A DNA stretch of 64,000 bases from Christensenellales bacterium (lineage in GTDB: Bacteria > Bacillota > Clostridia > Christensenellales > DTU072). The notes beneath the pieces are model-generated. The model worked only from the letters and a program-made list of their open reading frames with translations. It had not been told where the DNA came from and ran no database searches. Each line of letters starts with the position of its first letter. The first letter of the stretch is position 1. The stretch is from the NCBI GenBank assembly GCA_050309775.1, contig JBNRMV010000013.1, positions 13,255 through 77,254 on the forward strand, in the 5' to 3' direction. The position numbers and the translations under genes were made by a program. Positions 1 to 12,594 of the stretch are shown here, piece after piece.

Positions 1-284
1 ATGGCGGTTGCGCCGATACCGTCACAGTCATAATCGCCATAAAGCACAATGGCTTTTTTGCTTGCAATATGCTTTTTTATTATGCTTTCGGCTGCTTCGA
101 TATTGTGCAGAATTTTGGGAGAAGAAAGCAAAGAAATATCTGCGCTCAGATACTCTTTTATTGCCTGCGGTGTGGTGATATCCCTCATCAGCAGCAGTTT
201 TGCAATCAAAGGCTCAACTCCCGATTGTTCGGCAATTTTTATGATTTCTTGATTTTCAACTGCTTTTCTCTCAATAAATTTCAT
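1..284 (-). CDS. recJ: Single-stranded-DNA-specific exonuclease RecJ, N-terminal ~94 codons only (gene runs off the window start)
   Basis: Absent from the ORF track because it has no stop in the window. Hand translation from ATG (comp. 282-284) gives MKFIERKAVENQEIIKIAEQSGVEPLIAKLLLMRDITTPQAIKEYL...SKKAIVLYGDYDCDGIGATA, the RecJ N-terminus up to DHH motif I (YGDYDxDG). The secDF-recJ order is typical of Firmicutes. Confidence 0.75.
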   Translation of the reverse strand, partial: MKFIERKAVENQEIIKIAEQSGVEPLIAKLLLMRDITTPQAIKEYLSADISLLSSPKILHNIEAAESIIKKHIASKKAIVLYGDYDCDGIGATA

Positions 285-292
285 AATTTTAA

Positions 293-324
293 TTAAAAAA
301 TAGCCCTGTTTTCCGCAGGGCTAT
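293..324 (-). terminator. Intrinsic terminator downstream of secF
   Basis: Stem TAGCCCTG (301-308) pairs with CAGGGCTA (316-323). On the minus strand it is followed by TTTTTT (comp. of the A-run at 295-300). Confidence 0.7.
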
Positions 325-337
325 TTACTTGTTTTGG

Positions 338-1492
338 TTAGGCGTCTTTGGTGGCAAACTTAGTTATGCCTTTGCTTTTTGGTCTGCTCTTTGGCTTGTC
401 GTATGCGCGGCCGGGACTGTTTTTCTTTCTGTTGTGGTTGTCCTTAGCAGTCGTCATCATACCCCAAAGCGGAGCGGCAAGGAAAGCTGAGGAATAAAAA
501 CCTGCAATAAGTCCGAATATAATCGGCAGCGCAAAGGTGCGTATGGAACTTACTCCCATTATAGCAAGTATGGAAATCGTGATAAGCGTTGAGAGGGAGC
601 TATACACGCCGCGGGTAAATGTGGATATAATAGCGTTGTTGACCAGCTCGCCGACTTCATAGCGCTTGTTGGATTGTTTGTAGGGCTTTATATACTCTCT
701 CAATCTGTCAAACACAACAATGGTGCTGTTGATAGAGTATGCAACAATGGTAATAATAGCAGCAACTATTGTGGAGCCAATCTCGACGCGGAATATAACC
801 GTCAGCGCCATCATAATAATCACATCATGCAACAATGCCGCAATTGACGAAGCTGCGCTGAATATGTCAAACCTGATTATTATATAAAGGAACATAACCG
901 CCAGCGCAATAGATACCGAAATCAGCGCCGTTCTTACAAGTTTTATGCTCGACGATGTGCCGATAAGGCTTGCGGTAGTAGTAACACTTATGTCTAAATC
1001 TTTGTATTTTTCGTCTGCATGGAATGCATTGTCTATGTCCGACATAATTTTGTCATTGACTTTTTTCATTTCGACCGTCATTTCGTCGGTGCCATAGTTT
1101 ATGGCGTCCTTGTTCGGGTCATTGCCGTATGCAATGTATGAATACCGCACTACAATAGCGCTCTCGCCGCTAGCTTGAGAAGTAGCAATCTCAAAGCCAT
1201 AGCTTTCCACTACTTTTGTGATAATAGCCACATTGTAATCTCTGTTCGTCTTGTTCATATCAATGGATACATTGGGGTTATTTGACACCATCTCGACATT
1301 GAGCAGCGTACCGCCCTGAAAGTCAACGCCTATGTTGGCAAATTTATCATATTTTGGCGACAGTTGATAAACCGTACCGCAAATAAGCGAAACAAGCACT
1401 ACGAAAAGCGGAACCAGGAAAAATAGTCTTCTGTTTTCGAAAATCCGCATCTTTACCAGTCTGTTTTTTAGCATCTGCATAAATCTTTTCAT
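338..1492 (-). CDS. secF: Protein-export membrane protein SecF, with a basic ~40-aa C-terminal tail
   Basis: 384-aa ORF with an N-terminal TM, a periplasmic domain and a 5-TM C-terminal block (SecD/SecF family pattern). ATGA overlap with the secD stop. Confidence 0.9.
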   Translation of the reverse strand: MKRFMQMLKNRLVKMRIFENRRLFFLVPLFVVLVSLICGTVYQLSPKYDKFANIGVDFQGGTLLNVEMVSNNPNVSIDMNKTNRDYNVAIITKVVESYGFEIATSQASGESAIVVRYSYIAYGNDPNKDAINYGTDEMTVEMKKVNDKIMSDIDNAFHADEKYKDLDISVTTTASLIGTSSSIKLVRTALISVSIALAVMFLYIIIRFDIFSAASSIAALLHDVIIMMALTVIFRVEIGSTIVAAIITIVAYSINSTIVVFDRLREYIKPYKQSNKRYEVGELVNNAIISTFTRGVYSSLSTLITISILAIMGVSSIRTFALPIIFGLIAGFYSSAFLAAPLWGMMTTAKDNHNRKKNSPGRAYDKPKSRPKSKGITKFATKDA

Positions 1493-2790
1493 TCTGCCAC
1501 CTCGCTTTTCTTCAGATTGTAAAGACTTTCATTTTCGTCATCCAGTCCCAATACAGAATTGACCATCAATCTGGTGATTGTAACGGCTGTGAACAATGAC
1601 AGCACTACACCTATCATAAGCGTAAGAGCAAAGCTCTTTATGCCCGATGAGCCGAATATCATCATAACTATGGCTCCTATTATGGTGGTTATGTTGGAGT
1701 CCATAATTGTAATCAATGCTCTTTGGAAGCCTGCTTTTACCGCCGACGGTATGGAGCGATTGCCTTCATACTTAAATTCTTTTATTCTTTCAAAAATAAT
1801 TACATTGGCGTCAACAGCCATACCGATGCTCAGTATGACACCGGCAATACCCGGCAAAGTCAACTGCACCCACGGCACAACTGCAAGCAGCAAAATAAGC
1901 AGCTCAACATAAATAATCAAAGCTATTGATGCGCAAGCGCCCAGCAACCTGTAAAGCAAAACCATAAGAAGACAGATAGCTGCCACGCCTATTGCGCCGG
2001 CTATTATGCTGTTTATGAGCGCCTCATCGCCAAGTGAGGGCGAAATGGTTTCGGAGCGCAGCAAAGTTAATTTAACTTCAGACGCGCCGGCTTTTATTTT
2101 TACGGCATATTCATTTGCTTTCGTGAAGTCTGCGGCGTACTCAGGACTTGTTATGATAGCTTGTCCGTTGGATATTACGCCGTTTACGGTGGGCGACATA
2201 AATTCTTCGCCATCAAGGTATATCTTCAACAATTTGTCTTGAGTGTTGTTGTATACATGCTCCGTAGCTTTTGAGAAAGCCTCGGTCCCTACTTTGTTGA
2301 ATTGCAGCGCAATAACATAAGAACCGTCTTGTTGTGATACCGTGGCGTCATCAAGATGCTTGGAGCCTTCTATCCAAAGAGTGCCTTCGCTGTCCTTGAA
2401 TTCCAGCACGGCGGGCTTGGCTATAAGCGCCATAAGCTGCTCTGTATCCTGAATGTCGGGAACTTCCACACGAATTTCGTTGGCGCCTTGTCTTGTTACG
2501 ACGGCTTCCGAATAGCCCCTTGAAAACAACAAACTTTCCAAATTGTTTATGGCGCCGTCAATAGCCCCCTCTGGGTTTGACAGTCCATCTGTATTTGCTG
2601 AATATTCTGCGTACATGCCGCCTTTCAGGTCAAGACCCTGTCTGATAGCCGAAGAAATCCAATAGAAATCGTAATTCGTATCGCCTATCTGAAAGGATTC
2701 CTTGCCGTTCAGCGGCACAATAACCAAAGCCATCGCAATAATAAATACTGCAACAAGCGATAGTATAATAATTGATTTTTTCCTGCTCAC
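1489..2790 (-). CDS. secD: Protein-export membrane protein SecD
   Basis: 433-aa ORF with GTG start and GGAGG 7 nt upstream. The motif LDLKGGMY and the C-terminal 6-TM SecD/F domain are present. Confidence 0.9.
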   Translation of the reverse strand: MSRKKSIIILSLVAVFIIAMALVIVPLNGKESFQIGDTNYDFYWISSAIRQGLDLKGGMYAEYSANTDGLSNPEGAIDGAINNLESLLFSRGYSEAVVTRQGANEIRVEVPDIQDTEQLMALIAKPAVLEFKDSEGTLWIEGSKHLDDATVSQQDGSYVIALQFNKVGTEAFSKATEHVYNNTQDKLLKIYLDGEEFMSPTVNGVISNGQAIITSPEYAADFTKANEYAVKIKAGASEVKLTLLRSETISPSLGDEALINSIIAGAIGVAAICLLMVLLYRLLGACASIALIIYVELLILLLAVVPWVQLTLPGIAGVILSIGMAVDANVIIFERIKEFKYEGNRSIPSAVKAGFQRALITIMDSNITTIIGAIVMMIFGSSGIKSFALTLMIGVVLSLFTAVTITRLMVNSVLGLDDENESLYNLKKSEVAE

Positions 2791-2820
2791 CGACTTGCCT
2801 CCAAGTTGTTAATCTTAAAT

Positions 2821-2849
2821 ATTATATATGTTTTGTTTTTTTTAGTCAA
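2821..2849 (-). promoter_or_regulatory. Sigma-70-type promoter for secDF
   Basis: Minus strand reads TTGACT (comp. 2844-2849), 17-nt spacer, TATAAT (comp. 2821-2826), about 30 nt upstream of the secD SD. Confidence 0.5.
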
Positions 2850-2873
2850 CAAATAATAAGAAATAAAGAGAAT

Positions 2874-4253
2874 TTATACAGAAACTTTGTTGCGCTCACC
2901 TTCTAGGATTTTTTCTATGCCGGCAATTGCAAGGCTTAGTTCAAACCGCTTTTTTGTCAGTTCGCAACCTATATCATAGGTTGCGTCCAGTTTTCCGCAC
3001 ATATTCTGCGCATTGGCTGCGCAACCGCCTCCGCAATAGTATTTTGCAAAGCATTCCAGACATTTTGGTTTGCTCATAATTGAAATGTCTGAAAAATTCT
3101 CCCGTATGTCCTGTCTGTTTATGCCGTCAAATACATTGCCCAATACAAACTCCCGTTTGCCGACAAACTGATGACACGGATATATCTCACCCGTCGGGCT
3201 TACTGAAAGGTACTCCGTGCCTGCGCCGCAACCCGTCAAACGCTTGTTTATGCAAGGTCCGCAATCAAGGTCTACCATGAAGTGAAAGAAATTAAACCGC
3301 TTCTCTGTCTGCCTTCTGTCAAGATATATGTTGGCAAAGCGGCTGTATTCGTCCTTTATGTCGGCTATATGTCCATGTTTTATGGCAAGCGGCGAACTTT
3401 CGGGCAGCACCACCGGCTCTACTGATATTTGGTCAAAACCCATATCGTTCAGCGCCAGTATGTCCTCGGCAAAATCAAGGTTACGCGCGGTAAATGTGCC
3501 GCGTACATAATAGCTCTTGTTGCCGCGCGCGGCTGCAAACTTCTTTATGTTCTCCGCAATCTCCTCGTATGAGATGCCGTCAAGGCTTTTGCGGACGCTG
3601 TCATGGGTCTTTTTTCTGCCGTCAATACTAAGCACAACATTGTACATTTCTTTGTTGAGATAATCTATTGTCTCCTCGTCCAGCAGTACGCAGTTTGTGG
3701 TGAGCGTGAACGAAAATTCTTTGCCTCGCTCCGCCGCTCTTTTCTTTGCGTATTCAACAGTTTCTTTGACGACATCAATGTTCAGCAAAGGCTCTCCGCC
3801 AAAAAAATCAATCTCAAGACTTTTTCGGCGGCCGCTGTTCTCAATAAGAAAATCTACGGCTTTCTTTGCCACTTCGGCAGACATATAATCCCTTGCGGTA
3901 TTGTAGCTGCCGCCGCTTGCAAAACAATAGCTGCAACGCATATTGCAGTCGTGACAAATGTTCAGGCACAATGCTTTTGTGATAACGGGATTTTTTTTGA
4001 ATTCGGTCAGCATGGGCGGCGCATTCAGGGCGCCCTCTTGCTCCAACTCGTCAAAATAATTCTCTATATCAACAAGTTCGTTCAGCGGCGCAGATTCAAG
4101 CGACCTTTGTTCCTCTGACGAAAGTTCTCCCCCGTACCTTTTCTTTGCACACAAAAAAGCGACAAAATCCACGCTGTGCAGACTGCCACTTTCTGTATCC
4201 CATAAAAAATAATAGTCTTTATGATTATATTTATGGTTAAAAGAATGAACCAT
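2874..4253 (-). CDS. scfB: Radical SAM/SPASM thioether-forming maturase of the SCIFF peptide (ranthipeptide synthase)
   Basis: 459 aa. Radical-SAM cluster motif CNMRCSYC (CX3CX2C) and C-terminal SPASM motif CLECFAKYYCGGGC (CX2CX5CX3C), preceded by GCGAGTEYLSVSPTGEIYPC. Start ATG overlaps the stop of the SCIFF precursor. Confidence 0.85.
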   Translation of the reverse strand: MVHSFNHKYNHKDYYFLWDTESGSLHSVDFVAFLCAKKRYGGELSSEEQRSLESAPLNELVDIENYFDELEQEGALNAPPMLTEFKKNPVITKALCLNICHDCNMRCSYCFASGGSYNTARDYMSAEVAKKAVDFLIENSGRRKSLEIDFFGGEPLLNIDVVKETVEYAKKRAAERGKEFSFTLTTNCVLLDEETIDYLNKEMYNVVLSIDGRKKTHDSVRKSLDGISYEEIAENIKKFAAARGNKSYYVRGTFTARNLDFAEDILALNDMGFDQISVEPVVLPESSPLAIKHGHIADIKDEYSRFANIYLDRRQTEKRFNFFHFMVDLDCGPCINKRLTGCGAGTEYLSVSPTGEIYPCHQFVGKREFVLGNVFDGINRQDIRENFSDISIMSKPKCLECFAKYYCGGGCAANAQNMCGKLDATYDIGCELTKKRFELSLAIAGIEKILEGERNKVSV

Positions 4254-4423
4254 TATTGAGGTTTTTTCTCGATATTATGTATCTTTTCGTCCTGTTTGCA
4301 GGATTGGTTGCCGACGGTGCAGCTGGTTTTGCATGCTGATTGGCAAGACGATTGGCACTCGCCGCAGCCTGTTGAATGTGTTTTGCAAAGTGATTTCTTG
4401 AAAAGTGTGCTTATACGCTTCAT
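4253..4423 (-). CDS. scfA: SCIFF (six-cysteines-in-forty-five) ranthipeptide precursor, 56 aa
   Basis: Below the ORF-track size cutoff. Hand translation gives MKRISTLFKKSLCKTHSTGCGECQSSCQSACKTSCTVGNQSCKQDEKIHNIEKKPQ. GAGGT lies 7 nt upstream of the ATG (comp. 4421-4423). The TAA overlaps the maturase ATG (TAATG). Confidence 0.85.
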   Translation of the reverse strand: MKRISTLFKKSLCKTHSTGCGECQSSCQSACKTSCTVGNQSCKQDEKIHNIEKKPQ

Positions 4424-4449
4424 TGTTATTACCTCACTATTTTTGTATT

Positions 4450-4478
4450 ATTATATAACTTCCATTGGCATAAATCAA
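4450..4478 (-). promoter_or_regulatory. Sigma-70-type promoter for scfA-scfB
   Basis: Minus strand reads TTGATT (comp. 4473-4478), 17 nt, TATAAT (comp. 4450-4455), about 25 nt upstream of the scfA SD. Confidence 0.45.
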
Positions 4479-4549
4479 GGAAAATAGCAAAACAAATAGG
4501 CATATCACGCAGACGGCATGAATAAAGTTTATTTAGGCGGAGGGTTTAT

Positions 4550-4939
4550 ATGAAAAAATTAGCTATTAACAAAACAAATATTTACGATTTGGTGAAGGCT
4601 TGCATAATCGCAATAATCATTTCTCTATTGAGCGTACTGATACTTGCTCTCGTCGTCAAGATATTCACCGTTGACAGCAAGGTCATTATGCCGATAAATC
4701 AAACAATAAAGATTATCAGCATACTTGGAGGCTGTTTCTTTGGTTTCAGCTGCCGGGAAAAAGGCGCGCTGAAAGGTGGAATTGTCGGTGTTTTCTATAC
4801 AATATTGTCCATACTTGTCTTTGGCATTGTAGAAAAAAGCGTCAGCTTCAAAAATTTCAACTGGCTTGACCTAATCGCAGGCATCATTGCGGGTATTGTA
4901 AGCGGCATTCTTGCGGTAAATTTGCGAAAACAAAAATAA
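4550..4939 (+). CDS. Small 4-TM membrane protein, function unknown (possibly TIGR04086/YrzE-like)
   Basis: 129-aa ORF with GGAGGG SD 6 nt upstream, four hydrophobic helices and a terminator downstream. Confidence 0.6.
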   Translation: MKKLAINKTNIYDLVKACIIAIIISLLSVLILALVVKIFTVDSKVIMPINQTIKIISILGGCFFGFSCREKGALKGGIVGVFYTILSILVFGIVEKSVSFKNFNWLDLIAGIIAGIVSGILAVNLRKQK

Positions 4940-5011
4940 CTTTTCAAATCATAAAATCACACTTAATATACGCTGTCACCTGTTGATTGCGCAACCGTTC
5001 TTCTTAACATG

Positions 5012-5050
5012 AAAAAATCCCCTTTTCAACACAGGGGATTTATTGTTTTT
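5012..5050. terminator. Bidirectional intrinsic terminator between convergent genes
   Basis: Stem AATCCCC (5016-5022) pairs with GGGGATT (5034-5040). It is flanked by an A-run on the left and a T-rich run on the right. Confidence 0.65.
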
Positions 5051-5076
5051 CATCGATTTGTCAGGTCAAATAAAAA

Positions 5077-5361
5077 CTATTTGTCCAGTTTTGTGCGAAC
5101 GGCGTTCTTTATTATTGTGACCACCGTGGGCTCTTCTTCTGTGCCGACATTTATGAGATATCTGTCGTTCTCGGCGTCAATGGATATTATGGTGCCTACG
5201 AAGCCGCCAATTGTCATAACCTTGTCGCCTGTGGTTATGGAACTCAGCATTTCTGCCATCTTCTTTTTTTGTTTTCTTTGGGGAACAATCGTCATGACTA
5301 TCATCAGGACAAAGAATACTCCCATTATTACCAGTATCGGCCAGCTGCCACCTTCAAACAT
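5077..5361 (-). CDS. yajC: Preprotein translocase subunit YajC
   Basis: 94 aa with a single N-terminal TM, then QRKQKKKMAEMLSSITTGDKVMTIGGFVGTI, the YajC signature. Confidence 0.9.
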   Translation of the reverse strand: MFEGGSWPILVIMGVFFVLMIVMTIVPQRKQKKKMAEMLSSITTGDKVMTIGGFVGTIISIDAENDRYLINVGTEEEPTVVTIIKNAVRTKLDK

Positions 5362-5435
5362 TTTGTTTCTCTCCTCTATTTAGATTGTAATATCAATATT
5401 ACACTACCGCAATGAATAAATCAAGTAAATTATGG

Positions 5436-7597
<2,162 letters not shown>

Positions 7598-7617
7598 ATT
7601 CTTAAAAAATTTCCGCC

Positions 7618-8655
7618 TTATTCGTTGCCGTCCATATCAAATATTGTCGTCTGTTCGCCCTTGCATACCAGTCCCAAATGCTCATATGCGCGTTTCAGGC
7701 AAACTCTGCCTCTCGGCGTGCGTGTAATGAAACCAAGCTGCAGCAAATACGGCTCATATACATCTTCTATTGTGTTGGACTCTTCTCCCGACGCCGCCGC
7801 CAGCGTGTCCAACCCGACAGGACCGCCGTTGAACTTGTCTATGATGGTGGTAAGAATATTTTTGTCAACATTGTCAAGCCCCAACTCGTCTATTTCCATG
7901 TTCAACAAGGCTTTTCTGGTCACCGCAAGAGTAATAGTGTCCAATCCGTCGTATTGGGCAAAATCCCTGACTCTTTTCAACAGTCTGTTGGCAATTCTCG
8001 GTGTTCCTCTGGAGCGGCGCGCAATCTCCATACTGGCGACAGGCTCGATACTTATATTCAAAATTCTTGCCGAACGGGTGATAATGGTCGACAATTCCTC
8101 AGTATTATACAGCTCAAGGCGAAACATAACGCCAAATCTGTCACGCAACGGCGAAGACAACATACCTGCGCGCGTTGTGGCGCCGATAAGTGTGAATTTC
8201 GGCAAAGTCAGCCTTATTGTTCTGGCTGACGGACCTTTGCCAAGCACCATATCCAGCGAATAGTCCTCCATCGCAGGGTATAAGATTTCTTCTACATTGT
8301 GGTTCAATCGGTGGATTTCGTCAATGAATAATATTGAATTATTGTTCAGGTTGGTAAGAATGGCGGCAAGGTCGCCTGCTCTTTCTATTGCCGGACCTGA
8401 TGTTATTCTTATTTCGGAGCCCATCTCATTGGCTATTATATGGCTAAGCGTGGTTTTGCCCAGTCCAGGCGGTCCGTAAAGCAAAACATGGTCAAGCGCC
8501 TCCCCTCTTTTTTTTGCCGAATGCATAAAAACATTCAGGTTGCCCTTTATTTTTTCTTGCCCAATGTAGTCCTCAAGCGATTTTGGGCGCAACACATTTT
8601 CGTTTTCGTCGTTTTCAACCTTTACGGCCGTTACCAGCCTTTCTTCTTCAAACAT
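7618..8655 (-). CDS. ruvB: Holliday junction branch migration ATPase RuvB
   Basis: Walker [10 protein letters not shown], Walker B LFIDEIHR, and the RuvB C-terminal winged helix. Confidence 0.95.
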
Positions 8656-8675
8656 TTTTCCTCAAATTATTTTTA

Positions 8676-9263
8676 TTATAGATTTTTCAACGCCTTTGAT
8701 ATAAGGTCTTCAATATTTTGCGCGCCGTCTTTGGCTTTCTTTACGGCGGCGATGGCTTCTTTCTGTCCTATACCCAAGCTGCGTAGCGCCAGTATGGCGT
8801 CTGCGCTGTCACGGTCGACGGGTATGTCCTCAATCTCAACGCTCTCTGCTGCGGCAAAATCCGTCTCCAGACTTTCTCTAAGTTCAAGCACCAACCTTTC
8901 GGCGGTCTTTTTGCCTACGCCCTTGACTTTGGACAATGTTTTCAAATCCCTTGTGATTATTGCCGTAACAAGCTGTGAAAGTTCTATGCCCGACAATATG
9001 CTCATAGCCGCTTTGGGTCCTATGCCGGTGACAGAAATCAACTTCATAAACATATTCTTTTCTTCCATTGTATAAAAGCCGTACAGTGACACGCCGTCGT
9101 CACGCACCTGCATATAGCAAAATAATTTTATGTCCTTGCCCTGCGTGTTGGCTTTGACAATAGTAGACGCCGAAACCGACAACTCATATCCTATGCCGCC
9201 GTTGTCAATTATTATTACGCCGTTGCCGGCAGATACCAATTCGCCTTTTATAAACGCTATCAT
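8676..9263 (-). CDS. ruvA: Holliday junction DNA helicase subunit RuvA
   Basis: Start moved to MIAFIKGEL, the canonical RuvA N-terminus. The longer ORF would overlap ruvC. HhH motifs GIGPKAA and GVGKKTAERL are present. Confidence 0.9.
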   Translation of the reverse strand: MIAFIKGELVSAGNGVIIIDNGGIGYELSVSASTIVKANTQGKDIKLFCYMQVRDDGVSLYGFYTMEEKNMFMKLISVTGIGPKAAMSILSGIELSQLVTAIITRDLKTLSKVKGVGKKTAERLVLELRESLETDFAAAESVEIEDIPVDRDSADAILALRSLGIGQKEAIAAVKKAKDGAQNIEDLISKALKNL

Positions 9264-9270
9264 TTTTCTC

Positions 9271-9765
9271 CTATTTGATGCCGAACATATTTGCCAGTTT
9301 GTTGCTTTGCGCATGGGTCAAAGCCACCGCCAGCGCGTCTGCGGCATCGTCGGGTCGCGGAATGTCCGTCAATCCCAACATAATCTTTACCATTTGTTGA
9401 ATTTGGTTTTTGTCCGCTCTGCCATAGCCCGTCATCGCCTGTTTGATTTGTAACGGGGTGTATTCAAAGAGGTTTTGGCAATTTTGCATACATGATACAA
9501 GAATTGCACCTCTTGCCTCTGCGACAAATATTGCCGTCTTTCTGTTGTTCTGAAAAAACAATTCCTCAATAGAAATTGCGTCAGGGCGATATTTGTCTAT
9601 CAATTCTGTAATACACTTTGCGATAAATGTAAGTCTCTGGGGCAGGGTCTGCGTTTTTGGCGTTGTGATGACGCCGTATCCCAACGCAACATTTTTTGAG
9701 CCTTCGCTTCTTATTATGCCATACCCCACTGTGGCATATCCGGGGTCTATTCCCAAAATAACCAT
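9271..9765 (-). CDS. ruvC: Crossover junction endodeoxyribonuclease RuvC
   Basis: 164 aa with ILGIDPGYATVGYG and C-terminal DAADALAVALTH. Confidence 0.95.
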   Translation of the reverse strand: MVILGIDPGYATVGYGIIRSEGSKNVALGYGVITTPKTQTLPQRLTFIAKCITELIDKYRPDAISIEELFFQNNRKTAIFVAEARGAILVSCMQNCQNLFEYTPLQIKQAMTGYGRADKNQIQQMVKIMLGLTDIPRPDDAADALAVALTHAQSNKLANMFGIK

Positions 9766-9844
9766 ATTGATATGATACTAAAGATAATGTGTTTAGTCAA
9801 TTCATTAACAAATTTTATTTACCTGCCAAAACCAAACGGCTGAA

Positions 9845-9871
9845 TGCATAAAATTAAAGGTTTTTTATGCA
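9845..9871. promoter_or_regulatory. Perfect 9-bp inverted repeat in the ruvC/argG divergent region (possible operator)
   Basis: TGCATAAAA (9845-9853), 9 nt, TTTTATGCA (9863-9871). No T-run on either side, so it is not a terminator. Confidence 0.3.
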
Positions 9872-9887
9872 GCAGAGGCAAATTTAG

Positions 9888-9916
9888 TTGTATATTTATT
9901 CACAAAGATGTATAAT
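9888..9916 (+). promoter_or_regulatory. argGH promoter with overlapping ARG-box-like palindrome
   Basis: TTGTAT (9888-9893), 17 nt, TATAAT (9911-9916). The 16-mer TTGTATATTTATTCAC (9888-9903) has the TGNAT-W4-ATNCA symmetry of ArgR/AhrC boxes. It matches 12 of 16 positions of the element at the argD promoter, in the same register. Confidence 0.5.
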
Positions 9917-9952
9917 AGCTAAAAATAACTTATTATCAATCAGGAGAATCAT

Positions 9953-11170
9953 ATGAAGGTTGTATTAGCTTATTCGGGAGGTCTTGATACCTCGATTATC
10001 ATTCCATGGCTCAAAGAAAATTATGAAAACTGCGAAGTAATCTGCGTGGCAGGCGATGTCGGTCAAGGCGAAGAACTTGCTCCCCTGCACGAAAAAGCAA
10101 AGCGGAGCGGCGCCAGCAAATTATATATTGAGGATTTGAAAGAAGAGTTTGTAAAAGACGCCGTCTTTCCGTTGATAAAAGCCGGAGCGCTGTATGAACA
10201 AAAATATTTGCTTGGCACTTCCATAGCCCGTCCGATTATCGCAAAAAGACTTGTCGAAATAGCCGAAAAAGAAAATGCCGACGCCATTTGCCACGGTTGC
10301 ACAGGAAAAGGCAATGACCAGGTTCGTTTTGAACTGACTATCAGAGCGCTGAATCCCTATCTGAAGATTATTGCGCCTTGGAGAATATGGAACATAAAAT
10401 CAAGGGAAGAAGCCATAGACTATGCCGCGGCGCGCAACATTCCGCTGCCCGTCACTAAGAAAAAGCCCTATTCCATGGACAGAAACATACTTCACCTTTC
10501 GCACGAAGGGCACGACCTTGAAAACCCGTGGAATCAGTTCAAAGACAACTTGCTTTTGATATGCAAAACTCCTGAACAAGCGCCCGACAAAGCCGAATAT
10601 GTCACCATTGACTTCAAAAAAGGCATTCCGACAGCCATAAACGGCAAAAAACATGGCGCTGTCGAAATTATGACCACACTGAACGAAATAGGCGCAAGAA
10701 ACGCAATCGGCATTGACGATATGGTAGAAAACCGACTTGTAGGTATGAAATCAAGAGGCGTTTATGAAACGCCTGGAGGCACAATTCTCATGAAAGCCCA
10801 CAAGGAACTGGAAGAGCTTTGCCTTGACCGCAATACCGCTCATTATAAGGAACTTGTTGCATGCAAGTTTGCCGAACTGGCATATGACGGCAACTGGTAT
10901 ACTCCGTTGATGGACGCAATACAAGCCTTTGTCGACAAAACGCAAGAGACCGTCACCGGCACCGTCGTAATGAAACTTTATAAAGGCAACTGTGTCGTAG
11001 CAAAAAAGAAAAGCCCCTATTCGCTACATGATATAGATTTGTCAACCTTCGGAGAAGACGAAATCTATAACCAAAAGGACAGCGAAGGCTTCATAAATCT
11101 GTTCGGACTGCCGCTCCAGATGCGCGCCATAAAGATTGGCGACTACAAGAAAAAACTAATCAAAAAATAG
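9953..11170 (+). CDS. argG: Argininosuccinate synthase
   Basis: 405 aa with AYSGGLDTS and [13 protein letters not shown] motifs. AGGAG SD is present. Confidence 0.95.
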
Positions 11171-11217
11171 CATAATTATGCGCCCTTGAGAGCACGCAAA
11201 GATATTAAGGAGTTATC

Positions 11218-12594
11218 ATGAAACTTTGGAACGGAAGGTTTGAAAAAGACAGCGACAAACTTGCTGACGAATACAACACTTCTTTGCCGGTGGACAAAAA
11301 AATGTACCGTCAAGACATTGCCGCCAGCCTTGCGCATGCAAAAATGCTTGAAAAATGCGGCATTATCTCCGATTATGACGCAAAATCAATTAAAAGCGGA
11401 CTGGAAAGCATACTTAAGGACATAGAAAATGGTTATCTTGAATTTGAGAATGCCGAAGACATTCATATGTTTGTCGAAGAAAAGCTGACGGCGCGCATAG
11501 GCAATCCCGGCAAAAAACTGCACACCGCCCGCAGCCGCAACGACCAAGTAGTCACAGATTTTAAGCTATACATAAAAGACAGCATAACCGAAATAAAGGC
11601 AGAAATAAAAGAACTTATCGCCACGCTTGTGGCGCTGTCCAAACAGCACACAAACACTTATATGCCCGGCTTTACGCACATGCAAAAGGCGCAGCCTATC
11701 ACCCTTGCATTCCATCTTATGGCATATGCAGAAATGTTTTATAGGGATTTAGTCAAATTTGACAATGCCTATAAAAACACCGACTTCTGCCCTCTTGGTT
11801 CCGGAGCGCTTGCAGGCACAACCTACCCTATTGACAGAAAGTTCACGGCAAACGAACTGGGTTTTGCAGACATAACCTACAATGCTTTAGACGCCGTATC
11901 AGACAGGGATTATGTGGCGGAATACCTCTTTGTATCAACGCTCACGATGACCCACCTTTCACGATTTGCAGAAGAAATAATCACATGGGCAAGCAATGAA
12001 TACCGCTTTATTGAGCTTTCCGACGCTTTCAGCACCGGTAGCAGCATAATGCCCCAAAAGAAAAACCCCGACATGGCGGAACTTGTGCGCGGCAAAACAG
12101 GCAGAGCGCTGGGCAATCTGACAGCCATGCTGTCAATCCTGAAAGCCCTGCCCCTTGCCTACAACAAGGACATGCAAGAGGACAAGGATTTGTTGTTCCA
12201 AACTGAAGATGCGCTAATAAAGAGCCTTGTCATTTTCCGCAAAATGCTCGAAACGGCAAGTTTCAACAAAAAGAATATGCTTTCCTCGGCTGCGCTTGGC
12301 TTTACGAACGCTACTGATTTTGCCGACTATCTGACAAAAAAAGGCGCTCCGTTCAGAGAGGCCCACGCAATCACCGGCAAACTGGTTGCTTATTGCATAT
12401 CAATAAAAAAACCCATTGAAAAATTGCCGCTGATAAAGTTGCAGGAATTCAGCCCGTTGGTAGAAGATGATATTTTTAAAATGCTGTCGATAAAAACGCT
12501 TATCAACAACCGCTCAATAGAAGGCGGCACAGCGCCCGTAGCCGTGCGGCAAGCCATTCGGCTTATGGAAAAAAAAGTAGCAAAAATAAAATAA
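11218..12594 (+). CDS. argH: Argininosuccinate lyase
   Basis: 458 aa with MKLWNGRF, TARSRNDQV and GSSIMPQKKNPD (fumarate lyase signature). Confidence 0.95.
   Translation: MKLWNGRFEKDSDKLADEYNTSLPVDKKMYRQDIAASLAHAKMLEKCGIISDYDAKSIKSGLESILKDIENGYLEFENAEDIHMFVEEKLTARIGNPGKKLHTARSRNDQVVTDFKLYIKDSITEIKAEIKELIATLVALSKQHTNTYMPGFTHMQKAQPITLAFHLMAYAEMFYRDLVKFDNAYKNTDFCPLGSGALAGTTYPIDRKFTANELGFADITYNALDAVSDRDYVAEYLFVSTLTMTHLSRFAEEIITWASNEYRFIELSDAFSTGSSIMPQKKNPDMAELVRGKTGRALGNLTAMLSILKALPLAYNKDMQEDKDLLFQTEDALIKSLVIFRKMLETASFNKKNMLSSAALGFTNATDFADYLTKKGAPFREAHAITGKLVAYCISIKKPIEKLPLIKLQEFSPLVEDDIFKMLSIKTLINNRSIEGGTAPVAVRQAIRLMEKKVAKIK

What the first reader, a model, noticed from the sequence alone, without database searches (positions are those of the whole stretch)
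2874..4478. Untracked 56-aa SCIFF/ranthipeptide precursor, translationally coupled to its radical-SAM SPASM maturase
A minus-strand ORF at 4423-4253 is below the ORF-track cutoff. It encodes MKRISTLFKKSLCKTHSTGCGECQSSCQSACKTSCTVGNQSCKQDEKIHNIEKKPQ. It has GAGGT 7 nt upstream, its own TTGATT-17-TATAAT promoter, and a TAATG stop/start overlap with the 459-aa maturase. The maturase carries CNMRCSYC plus a SPASM CX2CX5CX3C motif.

The core GCGECQxSCQSACKTSCTVGNQxC is the signature of the SCIFF family. That family is a Clostridia-wide RiPP. Cys-to-Thr thioether chemistry has been shown in vitro for homologues (CteB, Tte1186), but the physiological role of the product remains unknown.

This copy has a seventh Cys in the leader (SLCK). 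It also has a 14-residue charged tail after the last Cys, which I recall being longer than in canonical ~45-aa members. secDF has its own promoter, so scfAB looks like an independent unit.
Basis: partly seen in the sequence, partly recalled or inferred. Interest (0 to 1): 0.6.

Follow-up and report, generated by a model that had tools for sequence, protein, structure and literature searches.

The report
Uncalled SCIFF peptide gene with maturase
This is an ordinary member of a well-known Clostridia peptide system: a small cysteine-rich SCIFF precursor and the radical-SAM enzyme that cross-links it. Gene callers missed the small gene, but its "unusual" extra cysteine and long tail are common in its lineage.

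Summary
A 56-aa minus-strand ORF (4253-4423) has a GAGGT ribosome-binding site and a TTGATT-17-TATAAT promoter. Its stop overlaps the ATG of a 459-aa ORF (2874-4253) as TAATG.

Both proteins pass curated family cut-offs:
- Peptide: SCIFF, TIGR03973 65.1 bits (cut-off 50); PF13165 66.2 (cut-off 27).
- Enzyme: ScfB, TIGR03974 565.6 (cut-off 425). It aligns end to end with the solved CteB structure (E 1.3e-129), with the radical-SAM and SPASM cysteines in place.

The promoter, ribosome-binding site and stop/start junction are conserved in related species. scfB has no Shine-Dalgarno of its own, so translational coupling is well supported.

The novelty claim fails:
- A 12-19-aa tail is present in all 117 nearest SCIFF clusters and in 33 of 76 species genomes sampled.
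- A leader Cys occurs in 27 of those 76, at varying positions.
- Tail class follows the maturase tree, so it is a lineage trait (Christensenella-like uncultured Clostridia).

Two things are mildly new. The gene is uncalled on all five public contigs of this organism. The long-tail lineage combines tight coupling with a DUF3792 membrane-protein gene next door.

Verdict: new member of a known kind; low interest.

The parts
4450..4478 (-). scfA promoter: -35 TTGATT (4478-4473), 17-nt spacer, -10 TATAAT (4455-4450)
   Evidence: Consensus scan gives 10/12. Both hexamers and their spacing are conserved in L007-L011, whose maturases are 58-68% identical, while the spacer sequences have diverged.
4431..4435 (-). 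Shine-Dalgarno GAGGT, 7 nt upstream of the scfA ATG
   Evidence: Read directly from the sequence. A GAGG core is conserved at the same place in L006-L011.
4253..4423 (-). scfA, the 56-aa SCIFF precursor. Leader aa 1-19 (4367-4423, includes C13); six-Cys core aa 20-42 (4298-4366); charged tail aa 43-56 (4256-4297); stop 4253-4255
   Evidence: TIGR03973 65.1 bits (cut-off 50) and PF13165 66.2 bits (cut-off 27). Core codons show 7-13 synonymous vs 0-1 nonsynonymous changes. It is the only such motif in the window.
4251..4255 (-). TAATG stop/start overlap between scfA and scfB (shared base 4253)
   Evidence: The junction is TAATG or TAAATG in L006-L009 and L011, and TAA-ct-GTG in L010. scfB has no SD-like motif here, nor in 32 of 34 members of the long-tail group, versus 37 of 43 with one in the short-tail group.
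2874..4253 (-). scfB, the 459-aa radical-SAM/SPASM thioether-forming maturase. N-terminal peptide-binding (RRE-like) region ~aa 1-90; CX3CX2C C103/C107/C110 (3924-3947); SPASM CX12GX4C C342-C360 (3174-3230); CX2CX5CX3C C398-C411 (3021-3062); last ligand C430
   Evidence: TIGR03974 565.6 bits (cut-off 425). The 'not_ScfB' model NF040492 scores 486, below its 855 cut-off. Aligns to CteB 5WGG over residues 6-444, E 1.3e-129, with the cluster cysteines aligned.
4550..4939 (+). Divergently transcribed 129-aa TIGR04086/DUF3792 membrane protein, a frequent neighbour of scfA
   Evidence: TIGR04086 57.7 bits (cut-off 30) and PF12670 53.6 bits (cut-off 31.3). A homologue lies directly upstream of scfA in 26/27 long-tail, 16/33 short-tail and 4/5 very-long-tail loci with enough flank. 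A functional link is inferred, not shown.
2821..2849 (-). secD promoter-like site TTGACT-17-TATAAT in the 83-nt scfB-secD spacer (downstream boundary of the unit)
   Evidence: Consensus scan gives 11/12. Conserved in L006-L010 but not L011. No GC-rich hairpin plus T-run terminator in the spacer.

Best explanation
This is a typical scfA-scfB (SCIFF ranthipeptide) cassette of an uncultured Christensenella-like Clostridium. It sits between yajC and secDF.

**Expression.** A sigma-70-type promoter (TTGATT-17-TATAAT) drives one mRNA. scfA is translated from a strong GAGGT site. scfB has no ribosome-binding site of its own. It is most likely translated by ribosomes that terminate at the scfA TAA and restart at the overlapping ATG, which ties enzyme synthesis to substrate synthesis.

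**Chemistry, inferred from CteA/CteB and Tte1186a/Tte1186.**
- The radical-SAM cluster (C103/C107/C110) cleaves SAM to a 5'-deoxyadenosyl radical.
- That radical abstracts a hydrogen from a threonine side chain in the core.
- A Cys sulfur, positioned at the SPASM auxiliary cluster, closes a non-alpha thioether (-2 Da).
- By residue mapping, the donor here is C31 and the acceptor is T36 (in-vitro result in homologues) or T33 (in-vivo result).

**Shown here:** family membership, conserved motifs, a conserved promoter and junction, and purifying selection.

**Inferred:** the cross-link site, the coupling mechanism, and a regulatory or signalling role rather than an antibiotic one. Export and leader removal are unknown. 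The adjacent DUF3792 membrane protein is the only recurrent candidate partner.
For: - Curated HMM cut-offs are passed by both proteins.
- The maturase aligns end to end with CteB (5WGG), E 1.3e-129, with the cluster cysteines aligned.
- 2673 SCIFF clusters are found with the peptide as query, and the nearest are named SCIFF by NCBI and JGI.
- Core codons show 7-13 synonymous vs 0-1 nonsynonymous changes.
- The ORF is intact on five independent metagenome contigs, with a single synonymous change.
- The -35, -10, SD and stop/start junction are conserved across species with 58-83% identical maturases.
- An SD-like motif upstream of scfB is found in 2/34 long-tail loci against 37/43 loci with long spacers.
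- Synteny is yajC-(DUF3792)-scfA-scfB-secD-secF.
- GC content matches the window, 0.43-0.45 vs 0.44.
- Chemistry and residue numbering of homologues come from PMC8326336, PMC6231123 and PMC8172795.
Against: - There are no expression, proteomic or mass-spectrometry data for this locus.
- The promoter scan alone is not above chance (6 sites vs 5.2 +/- 2.5 in shuffles). Support for the promoter rests on conservation.
- In homologues only one thioether has been shown. Its acceptor is disputed (Thr37 vs Thr34), and the mature product and its export are unknown.
- No terminator is found after scfB, so the transcript may run on into secDF.
- The contrast in SD motifs is phylogenetically non-independent, because tail class follows the ScfB tree.
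Confidence: 0.9

Rival explanations
1. The long-tail SCIFF of this lineage is a functionally distinct subfamily. On this reading the conserved tail, K-x-(D/E)-E-(K/R)-(I/V)-(N/H), is a second recognition, processing or export signal, possibly read by the adjacent DUF3792 membrane protein. The product or its handling would then differ from thermocellin-type SCIFFs.
For: - A (D/E)(K/R)(I/V) motif is present in the tails of 100 of 117 nearest clusters.
- Tail class follows the ScfB phylogeny.
- The long-tail group pairs with tight coupling (gap -1 to +36 nt) and with DUF3792 directly upstream in 26/27 loci.
- The tail lies outside both family models, which end at residue 43-44.
Against: - Tail codons show about as many or more nonsynonymous than synonymous changes (1-7 vs 3-4), unlike the core.
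- DUF3792 is also next to 16/33 short-tail loci, so it is not specific to the tail.
- All the traits are confounded with one lineage.
- The core is identical to canonical SCIFFs, and the maturase scores as a true ScfB.
Confidence: 0.2
2. The Cys-rich core acts mainly as a metal- or iron-sulfur-binding small protein rather than as a cross-linked secreted RiPP. ScfB would make only one accessory cross-link.
For: - Only one thioether has been seen in homologues, which leaves five free Cys.
- The core shows a weak resemblance to the ferredoxin-type Cys motif of epoxyqueuosine reductase 5D6S (E 0.032).
- The family is near-universal in Clostridia, which argues against an antibiotic role (PMC8326336).
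Against: - The PDB hit is at chance level for a Cys-rich query.
- Nothing in this locus bears on metal binding.
- Published knock-out phenotypes point to signalling or regulation.
Confidence: 0.07
3. The small ORF is a non-functional remnant or a chance ORF, and the maturase is an orphan ('not_ScfB' type).
For: Gene callers did not call the ORF on any of five public contigs.
Against: - Peptide HMM scores are above the curated cut-offs.
- The core is under strong purifying selection.
- The SD, the promoter and the junction with scfB are conserved.
- The orphan model NF040492 scores 486, below its 855 cut-off.
Confidence: 0.02

Closest known systems
CteA/CteB (thermocellin) of Clostridium thermocellum; CteB structure PDB 5WGG
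   Same: - The maturase aligns over residues 6-444 (E 1.3e-129), with the radical-SAM CX3CX2C and all SPASM cysteines aligned.
- The peptide has the same six-Cys core, with the C-K-T-S-C-T donor/acceptor segment.
- The architecture is the same three parts: peptide-binding domain, radical-SAM domain, SPASM domain (PMC6231123).
   Different: - The first core Cys is at position 20 here against 21 in CteA.
- This peptide has a 14-residue tail after the last Cys and a Cys in the leader.
- scfA and scfB overlap here. Short-tail loci have 49-369-nt spacers and an SD for scfB.
Tte1186a/Tte1186 of Caldanaerobacter subterraneus
   Same: Same family. In vitro it forms a single thioether from the fourth Cys (Cys32) to Thr37. 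The equivalents here are C31 and T36.
   Different: Canonical ~45-aa precursor without the tail. The enzyme was not compared directly here.
[quoted passage not shown] 2020)
   Same: Same precursor plus maturase pair. These are the only members with a reported phenotype: disruption changed sporulation and agr gene expression.
   Different: Different clostridial order. Whether the phenotype transfers to Christensenella-like organisms is unknown.
PapA/PapB (freyrasin) and QhpD
   Same: Related radical-SAM/SPASM enzymes that make non-alpha thioethers.
   Different: This enzyme scores below their cut-offs: PapB 270.8 < 340 and QhpD 225 < 453. Their substrates use Cys-X3-Asp motifs or a protein subunit.

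Membership tests
SCIFF precursor (TIGR03973 / PF13165) | Score at or above the curated family cut-off | tested here: met
   TIGR03973 65.1 bits vs 50; PF13165 66.2 bits vs 27; residues 2-43/44 cover the whole model.
SCIFF precursor (TIGR03973 / PF13165) | Six Cys in the conserved spacing CX2CX3CX3CX3CX6C, with the SACKTSCTVGNQ segment | tested here: met
   C20, C23, C27, C31, C35 and C42; core GCGECQSSCQSACKTSCTVGNQSC.
SCIFF precursor (TIGR03973 / PF13165) | Encoded directly upstream of a ScfB-type radical-SAM maturase | tested here: met
   1-nt overlap with a TIGR03974-positive ORF. The same arrangement is found in 76 of 80 related genome loci, and in a 77th with an inserted ORF.
SCIFF precursor (TIGR03973 / PF13165) | Occurrence in Clostridia, one copy per genome | tested here: met
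   The nearest genomes are titled Christensenella, Christensenellaceae or Clostridia MAGs. There is a single copy in the 64-kb window. The whole genome was not available.
SCIFF precursor (TIGR03973 / PF13165) | ~45-residue length (the 'six Cys in forty-five' name) | tested here: not met
   56 aa. But length is not what the models test, and 12-19-aa tails occur in 117 of 117 nearest clusters that NCBI and JGI name SCIFF.
ScfB thioether-forming maturase (TIGR03974) | Score at or above the curated cut-off and below the 'not_ScfB' exception cut-off | tested here: met
   565.6 vs 425; NF040492 486.4 vs 855.
ScfB thioether-forming maturase (TIGR03974) | Radical-SAM CX3CX2C motif and the seven-Cys SPASM motif | tested here: met
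   C103/C107/C110; C342-X12-G-X4-C360; C398-X2-C-X5-C-X3-C411; C430. All align with CteB cysteines. Pfam Radical_SAM 65.1 and SPASM 22.4 bits, both above cut-off.
ScfB thioether-forming maturase (TIGR03974) | N-terminal leader-binding (RRE) domain | tested here: inconclusive
   Residues 6-~100 align with the N-terminal domain of CteB, but at lower similarity. No separate RRE/PqqD Pfam hit. No structure was predicted.
Ranthipeptide (radical non-alpha thioether peptide) | Cys sulfur linked to a beta- or gamma-carbon of the acceptor residue | not testable with these tools
   Needs mass spectrometry, isotope labelling or NMR of the modified peptide. Known for homologues only.

The most novel reading that the evidence does not exclude
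The Christensenella-like 'long-tail' SCIFFs form a distinct, undescribed subfamily. Its traits are a 13-17-aa charged follower with a conserved (D/E)E(K/R)(I/V)(N/H) start, obligate scfA-scfB translational coupling with no SD for scfB, and a DUF3792 membrane protein next door. On this reading the tail and DUF3792 together handle processing, export or sensing of the peptide. That would give a first handle on how SCIFF products leave or signal in the cell.
Probability: 0.2. Interest if true: 0.35.

Novelty: new member of a known kind. Interest (0 to 1): 0.15.

Why it matters
It matters little for biology at large. SCIFF/ScfB is a curated family, widespread in Clostridia, and this locus meets its definition.

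Two practical points remain:
- Gene callers missed this precursor on every public contig of this organism. An antisense 63-aa shadow ORF passes a 60-aa length filter where the real 56-aa gene does not. So annotation based on ORF length or on Prodigal-type calling under-reports RiPP precursors.
- The survey shows that SCIFF loci come in at least two architectures. One has a short tail, a long spacer and an SD for scfB. The other has a long tail, overlapping genes and no SD. A DUF3792 membrane protein is a frequent third gene. That is a modest lead for anyone studying how these still poorly understood peptides are processed.

Tried and rejected
- **PDB search with the peptide.** It gave only chance-level hits to Cys-rich motifs: epoxyqueuosine reductase at E 0.032 and RBX1 RING domains at E > 1. 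The CteA fragment in 5WGG was not retrieved.
- **Rfam gathering-threshold scan of 1-12000.** No RNA family, so there is no riboswitch or leader element at scfA.
- **Papers not held.** Haft & Basu 2011 and Grove et al. 2017 are not in the library. Their content is cited second-hand from reviews.
- **Frame error.** My first comparison of the peptide ORF across contigs used a frame off by one, because the stop and start share a base. It was corrected.
- **Regex artefact.** A CX3CX2C pattern first matched the overlapping C96/C100/C103. The alignment to CteB shows the functional motif is C103/C107/C110.
- **P0128.** This 7228-aa protein scored 101 bits with no aligned stretch. I dismissed it as a Cys-rich low-complexity artefact.
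- **Very long tails among the 50%-identity representatives.** Many tails longer than 18 aa look like read-through or assembly artefacts. I did not use them as evidence.
- **Horizontal acquisition.** Rejected, because the GC content of scfA and scfB equals the window average and synteny is conserved.

Full report
**1. The observation**

- A 56-aa ORF runs from 4423 to 4253: MKRISTLFKKSLCKTHSTGCGECQSSCQSACKTSCTVGNQSCKQDEKIHNIEKKPQ.
- GAGGT lies at 4435-4431, 7 nt before the ATG.
- A TTGATT-17-TATAAT site lies at 4478-4450.
- The stop TAA shares base 4253 with the ATG of a 459-aa ORF (2874-4253).
- That ORF carries CNMRCSYC (C103/C107/C110), C342-X12-G-X4-C360 and C398-X2-C-X5-C-X3-C411.
- It is the only such peptide motif and the only SPASM motif in the 64-kb window.

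**2. What it is**

The peptide scores 65.1 bits on NCBIfam TIGR03973 'six-cysteine ranthipeptide SCIFF' (cut-off 50) and 66.2 bits on Pfam PF13165 (cut-off 27). The enzyme scores 565.6 bits on TIGR03974 'thioether cross-link-forming SCIFF peptide maturase' (cut-off 425).

The enzyme stays well below the cut-offs of the look-alike models: 'not_ScfB' orphan 486 < 855, PapB 271 < 340, QhpD 225 < 453. It aligns over residues 6-444 with CteB, the solved SCIFF maturase (5WGG, E 1.3e-129), with the cluster cysteines in register. With the peptide as query, 2673 clusters match at E <= 0.001. The nearest are 75-83% identical, and NCBI and JGI name them SCIFF.

**3. It is a real gene that annotation missed**

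The exact peptide is not in a collection of about 15 billion predicted proteins, whereas the maturase and the neighbouring membrane protein are. Five public metagenome contigs carry the identical maturase (JGI 3300049638 and four Logan assemblies, 99.8-100% identical to the window). On all five, no gene is called between the DUF3792 gene and the maturase. The ORF is nevertheless intact on all five, with one synonymous difference.

I compared the window with the closest species genomes (L006-L009 and L011, maturase 58-83% identical). The 23 core codons differ by 7-13 synonymous and 0-1 nonsynonymous changes. The leader and the tail change more freely. GC content equals the window average.

**4. 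The 'unusual' features are not unusual**

*Tail.*
- Nearest 117 clusters with the motif: every one has 12-19 residues after the last Cys.
- 145 representatives at 50% identity: tail length is bimodal, with modes at about 3-7 and 12-16.
- 76 species-representative genomes where the precursor was found upstream of a ScfB homologue: the tail is 2-6 aa in 38, 13-17 aa in 33 and 21-23 aa in 5.
- The long tails are not random read-through. 100 of 117 contain a (D/E)(K/R)(I/V) motif at the same place.
- Tail class follows the ScfB tree.

*Leader Cys.*
- It is present in 26/117, 29/145 and 27/76 of the same three samples.
- It occurs at positions 11, 13, 15 or 16, so it is recurrent but not fixed in position.

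The tail is indeed longer than in the canonical ~45-aa members, and it lies outside both family models. But it is a trait of a whole lineage whose genome records are titled Christensenella, Christensenellaceae or Clostridia MAGs. The closest species genome, L006, has a peptide that differs only by N50K.

**5. Expression signals**

The promoter scan alone is not above chance (6 sites against 5.2 +/- 2.5 in shuffles). However, TTGATT, the 17-nt spacing, TATAAT and a GAGG ribosome-binding site are conserved upstream of scfA in L007-L011, while the spacer sequences have diverged.

The stop/start junction is TAATG or TAAATG in six of the seven closest genomes, counting the window, and TAA-ct-GTG in L010. 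An SD-like motif of at least 4 nt upstream of scfB is found in only 2 of 34 long-tail loci and not here. It is found in 37 of 43 loci with short or very long tails, all of which have spacers of 49-369 nt. This supports real translational coupling, with the caveat that the contrast is confounded with lineage.

The 83-nt scfB-secD spacer holds TTGACT-17-TATAAT. That site is conserved in L006-L010 but not in L011. The spacer has no hairpin plus T-run terminator. So secDF has its own promoter, but read-through from scfAB is not excluded.

**6. Neighbourhood**

The gene order is ruvC-ruvA-ruvB-queA-tgt-yajC-(DUF3792, opposite strand)-scfA-scfB-secD-secF-recJ-relA.

A profile built from the DUF3792/TIGR04086 protein finds a homologue directly upstream of scfA in 26 of 27 long-tail loci, 16 of 33 short-tail loci and 4 of 5 very-long-tail loci with enough flank. 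It is usually on the same strand. It is inverted in the window and in L007-L011. No Rfam family is detected in 1-12000.

**7. How it most likely works**

*Shown here:* family membership, conserved catalytic motifs, conserved expression signals, and purifying selection.

*Inferred from the literature on homologues:*
[quoted passage not shown] A Cys of the core can ligate the open site of auxiliary cluster I (PMC6231123).
- The enzyme forms a thioether from the fourth Cys (Cys32 in CteA and Tte1186a) to Thr37 in vitro, or to Thr34 at the gamma-carbon in vivo (PMC8326336, PMC8172795).
- The first core Cys is at 20 here, against 21 in CteA. So the equivalents are C31 as donor and T36 or T33 as acceptor.
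- The role is more likely regulatory than antibiotic. The family is near-universal in Clostridia with at most one copy per species, and knock-outs in C. beijerinckii changed sporulation and agr expression.
- Leader removal and export remain unknown.

**8. Verdict**

The claim that the leader Cys and the tail make this copy special is refuted. This is a new, uncalled member of a known family, and its lineage-wide architecture is only mildly noteworthy.

Noticed in passing
window 4253-4423; L001-L005; L006:1-190: The SCIFF precursor is uncalled on all five public contigs of this organism. The 98%-identical peptide of the nearest species genome (L006) is also absent from the 120 best protein hits. 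Small precursors that overlap the next gene seem to be missed systematically.
   Followed up: partly
window 4296-4487 (+): A 63-aa TTG-start ORF antisense to scfA passes a 60-aa ORF filter, while the real 56-aa gene does not. It has no family support and is best read as a shadow ORF.
   Followed up: partly
window 4550-4939 (+); L007-L011 vs L012-L029: The DUF3792/TIGR04086 membrane-protein gene next to scfA is inverted (divergent) in the window and its five closest relatives. It is on the same strand as scfA in most other loci.
   Followed up: partly
window 338-6572: The DUF3792-scfA-scfB cassette sits between yajC and secD. That splits what is elsewhere the contiguous queA-tgt-yajC-secD-secF arrangement. 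yajC/tgt upstream and secD/secF downstream recur in many related loci of both tail classes.
   Followed up: partly
proteins P0129 (108 aa) and P0137 (92 aa): Two database proteins contain two complete SCIFF units (leader plus core) fused head to tail in one ORF. In P0137 two core Cys of each unit are replaced by Ser.
   Followed up: no
L062:2580-4000: In this Faecalibacterium-labelled MAG an extra ORF lies between scfA and scfB, and by eye it looks like a DUF559/endonuclease-type protein. This is why the precursor was first scored as absent there.
   Followed up: partly
peptide residues 18-41 vs PDB 5D6S: The SCIFF core shows a weak match (E 0.032) to the ferredoxin-type Cys motif of epoxyqueuosine reductase. 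This is probably a compositional effect. The nearby queA and tgt genes are unrelated to it.
   Followed up: no
L056, L062, L074, L075, L077, L085: A separate clade nested among the short-tail SCIFFs has 21-23-aa tails of a different kind (CANKENSxVLxGNEGKLNR...). So C-terminal extension has arisen more than once in the family.
   Followed up: partly
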